DNA of 64,000 bases, taken from NCBI RefSeq assembly GCF_013167455.1, contig NZ_CP038328.1. One strand, given 5' to 3'. Each line of letters begins with the position of its first letter. Positions within the stretch are counted from its first letter, which is position 1. This DNA comes from Escherichia coli O157:H7 (GTDB lineage Bacteria; Pseudomonadota; Gammaproteobacteria; Enterobacterales; Enterobacteriaceae). Shown piece by piece: positions 35,162 to 38,100 of this stretch. The position numbers were made by a program.

Positions 35162-38100
35162 TCACGTTAAGGATGACGAACGTAAGCTGTGCTTACGATC
35201 AAATGGGGCGGATACTGTCTTCATCCAGCTCCGCATCGAAGAACCGACGCAGGGTCTGAATATTATTATCCGCAATAATGGACTCGCGCGCCTGCGCAAG
35301 TTTTTCTTCGTATATCGCCTGACGCCACTCCAGCGGCGTACGCACCGCGGGATTATCATCTTCAACTATAGTCAGTTCAACCGTTGAACCTTTTAACATG
35401 CTCAACGCTTCAGCCAGTTTTTGCTGTGCACCGCGGTTGTTCAAATGCCGCTGAGAGGAGCGCAAATGCAGACATACTGCGTTGTCGCTCTCCTCTTTCC
35501 AGGCATTTAACGCCACCTGTTCGACCAGTTTTGGTAGCGAAAGTTGACTCACCTGAGCCGCCCACGCGTCGCGCTCAATGGCTTCTGCCGCCAGCTTCGC
35601 CGCCAGTTCCGGCGTTTTTTCATGTTCCAGCGCTTTTTTCAGCGCCTTCGGTGTGGCGACCACTTCTTTTTGCTGCATCACTGGAGTGGTCGCCTTCCAG
35701 CGATACGCTTCTTTTTTAGCTGGCGCTTTTTCCAGCGCCGATGGCACCGGACGCGCCTGAACGCGATCGGTGACCGAAGCCAGTCTTTCCAGCGCAGCGT
35801 TATTCACCGGCCGCGCGCGGGTAGCGGCTGCCGGTTCACTCTTTTTTGCTTTGGTTGCTCCCTGCACGCGCTGCAACTGCTGGCGCGCCGCCAGCACCTG
35901 GCTGGTGGTTTCCGGGAGCGGTACAGTCGGTGCCTGCTGCGGCGCTGATTGCGGTTGCGGCGGCACCTGGGTTGGCGTCATTACTGCCGTTGGCGCGACG
36001 GGTGCAAAGGACTGGCGTGGCACTTCTGGCTCAGGCAGCGGCATACGCGGATGGAACGCCAGCGCGCGCAGCAGCGTCATCTCAACGCCCATGCGGCGGT
36101 CCGGCGCATACGGTAATTCTTTGCGACCAATCAACAGCGTCTGATAGTAAAGCTGAATATCCGTCGGCGGTATGGTGCGCGCCAGTTCACGCATCCGCAG
36201 CTCGATGGCGGCCATGTCGTTGCCAAGTGCAGCAGGCGAAAGTTGTACCATCGCAATACGATGCAACAGGCCGAGCATTTCCACCAGCAACGCTTCCCAC
36301 TCGATACCACGGGCAGCGGCTTCATTAATCAGCGCCATTACGCGCTCGCCGTTGGCCTCGACCATCGCTTCAACCAGCGACAGCGCCTGATCGTCGTCAA
36401 GCGTACCCAGCATCGCACTGACCGCCTGGGTTGAAACCTGGCCGTCACCGCTGGCAATCGCCTGGTCGGTCAGACTTAAGGCATCTCGCAGGCTGCCTTC
36501 AGCGGCGCGCGCCAGCAATTGCAGCGCCCGCGGCTCGTGAGCGATATGTTCTTCATTGAGGATGTGCTCAAGTTGATGACGAATTTGCTCGACATCCAGC
36601 GCCTTGAGATGAAATTGCAAACAGCGCGACAAAATCGTCACCGGCAATTTCTGTGGATCGGTCGTCGCCAGCAGAAACTTAACGTGCTCCGGCGGCTCTT
36701 CAAGGGTTTTTAACAGTGCGTTAAAGCTGTGGCGCGACAGCATATGCACTTCGTCGATGAGATAAACTTTGAAACGACCACGCGCCGGAGCGTACTGGAC
36801 GTTATCCAGCAGGTCGCGGGTATCTTCAACTTTGGTGCGCGAGGCGGCGTCGATTTCAATCAGATCGACAAAGCGCCCCTGCTCGATTTCACGACAGTTA
36901 TCGCACACGCCGCACGGCGTCGCGGTAATGCCGGTTTCGCAGTTTAGCCCCTTCGCCAGCAGTCGGGCGATAGAGGTTTTTCCGACGCCACGGGTGCCGG
37001 AAAAAAGATAAGCATGATGAATACGCCCTAACGACAAGCCGTTCGCCAGTGCGGTCAGCACATGTTCCTGGCCGACGACGTCAGCAAAGGTTTGTGGGCG
37101 CCATTTTCGGGCTAAGACCTGATAACTCATTGGCAGGCTCTGAAACGCTGGAAGGTGGATTCTCGAAGGGGTAATGCTAACACAGCCCCGTCAGAACGGC
37201 GAGGCTGAATGCACATCTTGTGCTGTCCGTAGCGTGGGCAGCACAAGACTGGCGATAATTAATGGCCCGGGAACGGGACAAGGCTGTAGCTGGTAATGCC
37301 CTGTTTTTCGAGACGCTGTTCGCCGCCGAGATCGAACAGGTTGATAATGAACGCAGCGTCAGCCACTTCACCACCCAGACGACGGATCAGTTTAACGGTC
37401 GCTTCGATAGTGCCGCCGGTTGCCAGCAGATCGTCCACCACCAGAACTTTGTCGCCCGGTTTGATGGCATCAACGTGGATCTCCAGCTGATCGGTGCCGT
37501 ATTCCAGATCGTAAGTTTCACTGATGGTTTCACGCGGCAGTTTGCCCGGTTTACGGACCGGTACAAAGCCAACGCCCAGACCCAGAGCTACCGGAGCGCC
37601 AAACAAGAAGCCACGCGCTTCGGTGCCGACAACTTTGTTAATGCCCGCATTTTTGTAACGCTCAACCAGCAAGTCGATGCTGAGAGCGTAAGCTTTCGGG
37701 TCTTCCAGTAAGCTGGTGACATCGCGGAAAAGAATGCCGGGTTTTGGGTAGTCCTGAATGCTTTTGATGCTATTTTTGAGATACTCAAGCTGCTGTGCAG
37801 TCGCGGTCATAAGTGTATGCCTGCTTGTTACGGTGGTACTCACGGCGCGTTTTAAACGTATCAAAAGTAACAGTTGTTTAACCTTTGACCGCCTGCGCCT
37901 GTGCTCGAAAACGCCAGAATGTACTGGCTGTACGCAATAATTGCAACTGCGATTGTTGTGCTTCAGTGCTTTTCTTGCTTTTCATCAATCACCGGAATTC
38001 GCCACATATAGAAAAGCAAACAGGCGAGAATTACCAGCAACATGATGCGCACCCATGGCATCTGGACGAACCACAGAGAAATGGCAAACGTGAGCAAAAT

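What the first reader, a model, noticed from the sequence alone, without database searches (positions are those of the whole stretch)
35842..35848. dnaX programmed -1 frameshift cassette is intact
The slippery heptamer A AAA AAG, the upstream internal SD-like AGGGAG and the downstream GC-rich stem-loop are all present on the minus strand. This is textbook recoding, noted because a single-frame ORF track hides the gamma product.
Basis: established knowledge. Interest (0 to 1): 0.2.

Follow-up and report, generated by a model that had tools for sequence, protein, structure and literature searches.

The report
Intact dnaX -1 frameshift signal
This is the textbook ribosomal frameshift signal inside the E. 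coli dnaX gene, which lets one gene make both the long (tau) and short (gamma) clamp-loader subunits of DNA polymerase III; it is present and unaltered here, so the finding is correct but ordinary.

Summary
On the minus strand, the 643-aa dnaX (tau) ORF spans 35199..37130.

It contains these elements:
- AGGGAG at 35858-35863.
- A 10-nt spacer.
- The heptamer A AAA AAG at 35841-35847, in the correct X XXY YYZ phase.
- A 5-6-nt spacer.
- An 11-bp GC-rich hairpin at 35806-35835.
- In the -1 frame, GAG UGA, which ends a 431-aa gamma.

Supporting evidence:
- Rfam RF00382 (DnaX frameshifting element) matches at full length, 96.8 bits against a gathering score of 35.
- The 65-nt element is identical to K-12 MG1655 and to 5372 of 5423 complete E. 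coli genomes.
- RefSeq annotates the element in an O157:H7 genome whose dnaX gene is 100% identical to the window's.
- In 43 distinct Enterobacterales cassettes, the hairpin is kept through compensatory changes.
- The hairpin is the most stable 30-nt fold in the gene.
- The composite motif occurs once in the window and in none of 100 shuffles.

Two signals are not significant taken alone: the heptamer count and the fold energy measured against shuffles.

Verdict: already known and correctly identified, of low interest. That gamma is actually produced is inferred from published K-12 experiments on the identical sequence.

The parts
35199..37130 (-). dnaX zero-frame ORF: tau, 643 aa, with domains I-V
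   Evidence: ORF list. Pfam places the AAA+/delta2 domain at 20-178, the lid at 182-230, domain III at 232-358, tau domain IV at 417-498 and tau domain V at 500-640. The gene is 100% identical to dnaX of O157:H7 PV15-279 and 99.0% to K-12 DH1.
35836..37130 (-). gamma coding region: 430 zero-frame codons, a -1 shift at the heptamer, then GAG (Glu) and UGA, giving 431 aa
   Evidence: Translations. The span is 1295 nt, the same length as the joined gamma CDS YP_009518751.1 of NC_000913.3.
35858..35863 (-). internal Shine-Dalgarno-like AGGGAG, the 5' stimulator, 10 nt upstream of the heptamer
   Evidence: Sequence. It is the only AGGGAG in the gene and the second-best predicted pairing to the 16S 3' end, at -7.4 kcal/mol. 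The composite motif is unique in the window.
35841..35847 (-). slippery heptamer A AAA AAG (Lys429-Lys430), the shift site
   Evidence: It is the only one of the three AAAAAAG in dnaX that lies in the X XXY YYZ phase.
35836..35841 (-). -1-frame GAG UGA: the last gamma codon and its stop. The G at 35841 is shared with the heptamer.
   Evidence: Translation KKE*.
35806..35835 (-). 3' stimulatory stem-loop: 6 bp, an A/G internal mismatch, then 5 bp with a bulged C and a 5-nt loop
   Evidence: Rfam structure line. MFE and centroid fold at -18 to -19 kcal/mol. Rank 1 of 1903 local folds in the gene. Compensatory changes in relatives.
35802..35866 (-). extent of the Rfam RF00382 'DnaX ribosomal frameshifting element' match
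   Evidence: 96.8 bits against a gathering score of 35, model positions 1-65 of 65. RefSeq annotates the same 65 nt as 'DnaX frameshifting element'.

Best explanation
This is the programmed -1 ribosomal frameshift cassette of E. coli dnaX.

Mechanism. Ribosomes translating dnaX reach GCA AAA AAG with the two Lys codons in the P and A sites.
1. The 16S rRNA 3' end pairs with AGGGAG 10 nt upstream.
2. The GC-rich hairpin 5-6 nt downstream sits at the mRNA entry channel and slows translocation and A-site tRNA binding.
3. Both tRNA-Lys can re-pair one base back, on AAA AAA.
4. About half of the ribosomes continue in the -1 frame, read GAG (Glu) and stop at UGA.

Products. The shifted ribosomes make gamma (431 aa). 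It has domains I-III, the linker and the first ~14 residues of domain IV. It lacks almost all of the DnaB-binding domain IV and all of the polymerase-alpha-binding domain V. The other ribosomes make full-length tau (643 aa).

What is shown and what is inferred. Shown here: the presence, phase, spacing, identity to K-12 and evolutionary conservation of all elements. Inferred from published K-12 experiments on the identical sequence: the ~50% efficiency, the role of each stimulator and the kinetic mechanism.
For: - Anatomy and phase.
- Rfam RF00382 full-length match, 96.8 bits against a gathering score of 35.
- The 65-nt element is identical to K-12 MG1655 and to 5372 of 5423 E. coli genomes, although the whole gene is only 95-99% identical in 2543 of 5424.
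- No difference from NC_000913.3 between 35719 and 36014.
- The gamma CDS length of 1295 nt equals the K-12 joined CDS.
- RefSeq annotates a 'DnaX frameshifting element' at the homologous position.
- The hairpin was left unconstrained in the genome contigs pattern scan. It is nevertheless present at the same offset in 42 of 43 distinct Enterobacterales dnaX cassettes.
  - 87.7% of cells are paired, against 28-52% when the 3' partner is slid.
  - The closing pair is A-U in 29 and G-C in 11.
  - One cassette has G-C changed to A-U at columns 36/57, and the inner helix also has compensatory pairs.
- Pfam places the shift site at the start of tau domain IV.
- Literature. 50% of ribosomes shift and terminate one codon later, A_AAA_AAG is the natural shift site, the SD is a major stimulator, and E. 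coli has a single tRNA-Lys (PMC5009743). Removing the hairpin lowers -1 frameshifting from about 60% to about 25% in vitro, and heptamer mutations lower it to 5% or less (PMC7282821).
Against: No result contradicts it. The caveats are these.
- Fold energy is not better than shuffles of this GC-rich sequence: z = -0.4 and -0.3.
- The heptamer alone is not enriched in the window.
- Conservation of the SD-like site and the heptamer could not be tested without bias in the cross-genus set, because the scan pattern required them.
- No expression data for this strain were available.
- The tRNA-Lys and 16S rRNA genes that the mechanism needs lie outside the window.
Confidence: 0.97

Rival explanations
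1. The motifs are a chance co-occurrence in a coding sequence and have no recoding function in this strain. Only tau is made.
For: AAAAAAG is as common in the window as in shuffles. Hairpin energy is not better than shuffles. Two other AAAAAAG occur in dnaX with no function attached.
Against: The composite motif appears in 0 of 100 shuffles. The covariance-model match has E = 3.6e-21. The sequence is identical to the experimentally characterised K-12 cassette. The element is near-invariant across 5423 genomes while the gene as a whole varies. Compensatory changes occur in the hairpin across genera.
Confidence: 0.01
2. Gamma arises by transcriptional slippage of RNA polymerase on the A-run, as in Thermus thermophilus dnaX, rather than by ribosomal slippage.
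For: A homopolymeric A6 run is present at 35842-35847. Thermus dnaX uses transcriptional slippage (PMC5009743).
Against: Efficient slippage in bacteria is described on runs of 9 A or T (PMC5009743), and this run has only 6 A. The conserved SD-like site and hairpin act on ribosomes and would be unnecessary. In vitro translation of defined dnaX mRNA gives about 60% frameshifting (PMC7282821).
Confidence: 0.01
3. The short product is made mainly by proteolysis of tau, as in Caulobacter crescentus, and the cassette is a relic.
For: Caulobacter gamma derives from cleavage of tau (PMC5009743).
Against: The cassette is under evident purifying selection and shows covariation. The published E. coli data assign gamma to frameshifting (PMC5009743).
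Confidence: 0.01

Closest known systems
E. coli K-12 dnaX -1 programmed frameshift cassette (Rfam RF00382)
   Same: Identical in all 65 nt, and identical to NC_000913.3 across 35719-36014. It has the same heptamer, phase, SD-like site, spacers, hairpin and -1 stop, and the same 431-aa gamma.
   Different: Nothing differs within the cassette. The surrounding gene differs from K-12 at 18 of the 1909 positions compared, with one amino-acid change, A522 here against P in K-12. The host is an O157:H7-like chromosome.
dnaX cassettes of other Enterobacterales (Enterobacter, Pantoea, Serratia, Mixta and others)
   Same: They share the AGGGAG-N10-A AAA AAG-AG UGA core and a hairpin at the same offset with the same outer CCGGC/GCCGG helix.
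   Different: Their inner helix uses a different register, GCGC/GCGC without the bulged C, and loops of 5 or 8 nt. The closing pair is G-C instead of A-U in 11 of 43. Candidatus Pantoea persica has a 12-nt deletion that leaves only a ~5-bp hairpin.
IS3-family (for example IS911) transposase -1 frameshift sites
   Same: They use -1 frameshifting with an upstream SD-like stimulator (an estimated 56% of IS elements) and a downstream RNA structure (PMC5009743). That the shift site is often A AAA AAG is from my own knowledge.
   Different: There the shift extends the protein, fusing OrfA and OrfB, rather than truncating it. The IS911 structure is a three-way junction (PMC5009743). The host gene is unrelated.
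Thermus thermophilus dnaX (transcriptional slippage) and Caulobacter dnaX (proteolysis)
   Same: The outcome is the same: a tau:gamma pair from one gene (PMC5009743). The 1:1 ratio is stated there for frameshifting and for Thermus slippage.
   Different: The mechanism differs. Thermus uses RNA polymerase slippage on a long A run, and Caulobacter cleaves tau. Neither has an SD/hairpin ribosomal cassette.

Membership tests
dnaX -1 programmed ribosomal frameshift element (Rfam RF00382) | Lies inside the dnaX (clamp-loader tau/gamma) coding sequence, about two-thirds of the way along | tested here: met
   Pfam finds the AAA+/delta2, lid, gamma3, tau_4 and tau_5 domains. RefSeq annotates dnaX. The site is at codon 429-430 of 643.
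dnaX -1 programmed ribosomal frameshift element (Rfam RF00382) | Slippery heptamer A AAA AAG in X XXY YYZ phase relative to the zero frame | tested here: met
   35841-35847 on the minus strand, gene position 1284, phase 2, reading GCA AAA AAG.
dnaX -1 programmed ribosomal frameshift element (Rfam RF00382) | Internal Shine-Dalgarno-like sequence about 10 nt 5' of the heptamer | tested here: met
   AGGGAG at 35858-35863 with a 10-nt spacer. Predicted duplex with the 16S 3' end is -7.4 kcal/mol, the second-best site in the gene. The 16S sequence was taken from established knowledge, not from the window.
dnaX -1 programmed ribosomal frameshift element (Rfam RF00382) | Stable stem-loop starting 5-6 nt 3' of the heptamer | tested here: met
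   35806-35835, 11 bp, -18 to -19 kcal/mol. Best local fold in the gene. Covariation in 43 relatives. Not significant against shuffles alone.
dnaX -1 programmed ribosomal frameshift element (Rfam RF00382) | A stop codon in the -1 frame right after the shift, so the shifted product is the truncated gamma | tested here: met
   AAA AAA GAG TGA. The 1295-nt gamma span equals that of the K-12 joined CDS.
dnaX -1 programmed ribosomal frameshift element (Rfam RF00382) | Covariance-model score at or above the family's gathering threshold | tested here: met
   96.8 bits against 35, model positions 1-65 of 65, E = 3.6e-21.
dnaX -1 programmed ribosomal frameshift element (Rfam RF00382) | The host decodes AAA and AAG with a single tRNA-Lys (anticodon mnm5s2UUU), which makes AAG shift-prone | not testable with these tools
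   The Rfam gathering scan of the window reports no tRNA. The property is stated for E. coli in PMC5009743. The window is E. coli by sequence identity.
dnaX -1 programmed ribosomal frameshift element (Rfam RF00382) | Gamma is actually produced at roughly 1:1 with tau | not testable with these tools
   This needs protein or ribosome-profiling data. It is inferred from K-12 experiments on the identical sequence (PMC5009743, PMC7282821).

The most novel reading that the evidence does not exclude
The second most stable local hairpin in dnaX mRNA lies at 35873-35902 on the minus strand. It scores -17.5 kcal/mol and sits about 10 nt 5' of the SD-like site. It is present in E. coli and E. albertii but not in other Enterobacterales. 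It could refold behind the ribosome and fine-tune frameshift efficiency or SD:anti-SD pairing in the Escherichia lineage, as an extra, lineage-specific modulator of the tau:gamma ratio.
Probability: 0.03. Interest if true: 0.3.

Novelty: already known. Interest (0 to 1): 0.05.

Why it matters
The main value is for annotation. A single-frame gene call reports only tau (643 aa) and misses gamma (431 aa). Gamma is a real clamp-loader subunit, reported to matter for UV resistance and Pol IV-associated mutagenesis in E. coli (PMC5009743). Confirming that the cassette is intact and identical to K-12 means that the extensive K-12 biochemistry can be transferred to this O157:H7-like strain. Nothing new about biology is learned.

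Tried and rejected
1. Thermodynamic significance. Energy against shuffles is therefore not usable as evidence here. I replaced it with the hairpin's rank among local folds of the same mRNA and with covariation.

2. Heptamer count. 14 observed against 10 expected, not informative on its own.

3. The two other AAAAAAG in dnaX, at 35711-35717 and 35633-35639. Both are in phase AAA AAA G, with no AGGGAG and no strong hairpin nearby. I rejected them as shift sites.

4. The upstream hairpin at 35873-35902. I tested it in 50 relatives and it is not conserved outside Escherichia. I rejected it as a core part of the cassette.

5. About 40 Collinsella hits to AGGGAG-N10-AAAAAAGAGTGA. These are the 5' end of rpoD, downstream of dnaG. 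AGGGAG there is the probable initiation SD for a GTG start, and no hairpin follows. They are not dnaX-type recoding, and GTDB's many near-identical Collinsella species inflate their number.

6. A weak Rfam STnc460 match inside the dnaX 3' end: 25 bits against a gathering score of 70, E = 0.12. I treated it as chance.

7. The positions at which the 51 E. coli genomes with a 95-99% identical cassette differ. The ranking options do not expose the tail of the hit list, so this is not resolved.

Full report
**Observation**

The minus strand of the window carries a 643-aa ORF at 35199..37130. Reading 35700..35960 on that strand shows ...CGC GUG CAG GGA GCA ACC AAA GCA AAA AAG AGU GAA CCG GCA GCC GCU ACC CGC GCG CGG CCG GUG AAU...

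An exact search puts AAAAAAG at 35841-35847.

- The heptamer starts at gene position 1284, the third base of a codon. The zero frame thus reads GCA AAA AAG, which is A AAA AAG in the X XXY YYZ phase, with Lys429-Lys430.
- AGGGAG lies at 35858-35863, 10 nt upstream.
- The hairpin ACCGGCAGCCGCUACCCGCGCGCGGCCGGU lies at 35806-35835. It starts 6 nt after the heptamer, or 5 nt if the A-U closing pair is counted.
- The -1 frame reads AAA AAA GAG UGA. The shifted product is therefore 430 + 1 = 431 aa.

**Is it more than chance?**

Two simple tests are not significant, and I report them as such.

- AAAAAAG occurs 14 times in the window against 10 +/- 2.9 in shuffles.
A 91-nt stretch behaves the same way.

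The combination is a different matter.

- AGGGAG-N8-12-AAAAAAG occurs once in the window and in none of 100 shuffles.
- The hairpin is the most stable of all 1903 30-nt windows of the dnaX mRNA: -18.0 kcal/mol against a mean of -6.0, sd 3.4.
- AGGGAG is the only such hexamer in the gene and the second-best predicted partner of the 16S 3' end.
- Of the three AAAAAAG in dnaX, only this one is in the slippery phase.

**Identity**

- Rfam RF00382, 'DnaX ribosomal frameshifting element', matches 35802..35866 over its full 65 positions at 96.8 bits. The gathering score is 35, and E = 3.6e-21.
- The ORF has the clamp-loader architecture: AAA+/delta2 at 20-178, lid at 182-230, domain III at 232-358, tau domain IV (DnaB-binding) at 417-498, and tau domain V (alpha-interacting) at 500-640.
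- The shift after Lys430 therefore removes nearly all of domain IV and all of domain V.

**Comparison with E. coli genomes**

- The gene is 100% identical to dnaX of E. coli O157:H7 PV15-279 and 99.0% identical to K-12 DH1. It is found in 5424 of 5426 complete E. coli genomes.
- RefSeq annotates the homologous 65 nt as 'DnaX frameshifting element'.
- The curated K-12 record NC_000913.3 carries a joined gamma CDS of 1295 nt, exactly the length of 37130..35836 here.
- Against NC_000913.3 the window differs at 18 of the 1909 positions compared. Seventeen are synonymous, and none lies between 35719 and 36014.
- The 65-nt element is 100% identical in 5372 of 5423 genomes, including MG1655. The whole gene, by contrast, falls in the 95-99% identity band in 2543 of 5424 genomes.

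**Conservation beyond E. coli**

One genome-contig scan used AGGGAG-N9-11-AAAAAAGAGTGA. This fixes the SD, the heptamer and the -1 stop but leaves the hairpin free.

- tblastn with tau showed that the Enterobacterales hits lie in dnaX.
- 43 distinct cassettes were aligned (A1).
- Folded individually, 42 of 43 put a hairpin at the same offset.
- On the Rfam structure, 87.7% of cells pair, against 28-52% when the 3' partners are slid by 1-3 columns. No shuffle out of 500 reaches the observed covariation score.
- The closing pair is A-U in 29 sequences and G-C in 11. One sequence has G-C changed to A-U at columns 36/57 (Mixta, L046). Further double changes occur in the inner helix.
- About half of the sequences use a different inner register, GCGC/GCGC with no bulge. 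The stem is kept, but its exact sequence is not.

Conservation of the SD and the heptamer cannot be judged from this set, because the pattern required them. For those two elements I rely on the E. coli population data and on the Rfam consensus, which is upper-case throughout AGGGAG and AAAAAAG.

**Mechanism**

The following comes from the literature, not from tests here.

- A_AAA_AAG is the natural shift site.
- E. coli's single tRNA-Lys pairs better with AAA than with AAG.
- The 5' SD is a major stimulator (PMC5009743, for all four points above).
- In vitro, the defined dnaX mRNA gives about 60% -1 frameshifting, falling to about 25% without the hairpin and to 5% or less with heptamer mutations. 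The hairpin inhibits A-site tRNA binding and translocation when it sits 11-12 nt from the P-site codon (PMC7282821).

In the window, with AAA in the P site and AAG in the A site, the stem starts 12-13 nt from the first P-site base. This fits a position at the mRNA entry channel, and it is my inference. Because the sequence is identical to the one used in those experiments, I transfer the mechanism with high confidence. No expression data for this strain were available.

**Rivals**

- Chance co-occurrence is excluded by the covariance-model score, the shuffles of the composite motif, the population invariance and the covariation.
- Transcriptional slippage, as in Thermus, is described for runs of about 9 A or T (PMC5009743), and this run has 6 A. 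It would also leave the ribosome-directed stimulators unexplained.
- Proteolysis of tau, as in Caulobacter, does not explain selection on the RNA elements.

**Things that led nowhere**

- A second strong hairpin at 35873-35902, just 5' of the SD, is confined to E. coli and E. albertii and is lost in other genera.
- The many Collinsella hits to the search pattern are the start of rpoD. AGGGAG there is probably the initiation SD.
- A sub-threshold STnc460 match is chance.

**Verdict**

Interest is low. Its practical value is as a reminder that gamma must be annotated by a joined CDS.

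Noticed in passing
window 35873-35902 (-): This is the second most stable local hairpin of the dnaX mRNA (GCCAGGUGCUGGCGGCGCGCCAGCAGUUGC, -17.5 kcal/mol), about 10 nt 5' of the SD-like AGGGAG. 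It is present in E. coli and E. albertii but not in Citrobacter, Enterobacter, Pantoea, Serratia and others, so it is not a conserved part of the cassette.
   Followed up: yes
window 35711-35717 and 35633-35639 (-): Two further AAAAAAG heptamers lie inside dnaX, both in phase AAA AAA G, without an SD-like site or a strong hairpin. The window has T at 35718 where K-12 has C, giving U AAA AAA G.
   Followed up: partly
window 13867-15222 (-): The TolC-family outer-membrane protein ORF is intact here (451 aa). The near-identical O157:H7 PV15-279 record annotates it as a frameshifted pseudogene that is 1 nt shorter.
   Followed up: partly
window 1-13764 (-): This is the 5' part of a giant BapA-related adhesin gene (siiEA). 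The first ORF ends at 9379 after 1461 aa, matching the 'internal stop' pseudogene annotation. The window is also about 300 nt shorter than PV15-279 in the repeat region.
   Followed up: partly
window ~32150-32180 (htpG-adk spacer): A 26-nt insertion relative to O157:H7 PV15-279. Otherwise there are only 6 mismatches over the 31.8 kb on the dnaX side, so the window is O157:H7-like but not that strain.
   Followed up: partly
L042 9769-9796 (-), and ~40 other Collinsella loci: The pattern AGGGAG-N10-A AAA AAG AG UGA also sits at the very 5' end of Collinsella rpoD (sigma-70, downstream of dnaG). It is in the same phase as in dnaX, but there is no hairpin, and AGGGAG is the probable initiation SD for a GTG start. 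This is probably coincidence, inflated by many near-identical genomes.
   Followed up: partly
L014 3006-3033 (-) (Candidatus Pantoea persica dnaX): A 12-nt in-frame deletion relative to other Pantoea removes most of the stimulatory hairpin and leaves a ~5-bp stem. The SD, heptamer and -1 stop are intact. It may be a weakened cassette; I believe this organism is a symbiont, but that was not checked.
   Followed up: partly
alignment A1 columns 39-54 (window 35813-35828): Enterobacterales dnaX hairpins fall into two inner-helix registers. The E. coli/Citrobacter type is GCCGC...GCG(C)GC with a bulged C and a 5-nt loop. The Enterobacter/Pantoea/Serratia type is GCGC...GCGC with 5- or 8-nt loops.
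   Followed up: yes
window 20665-20742, 27802-27879, 22040-22123, 52500-52596: Other Rfam matches above the gathering score: two naRNA4 (REP-like) elements, one of which scores on both strands, sroB sRNA, and the SRP RNA ffs.
   Followed up: no
window 35490-35499 (-): The strongest predicted anti-SD pairing site in dnaX (AGAGGAG, -9.1 kcal/mol) lies in the tau-specific 3' part of the gene, with no slippery site nearby.
   Followed up: no
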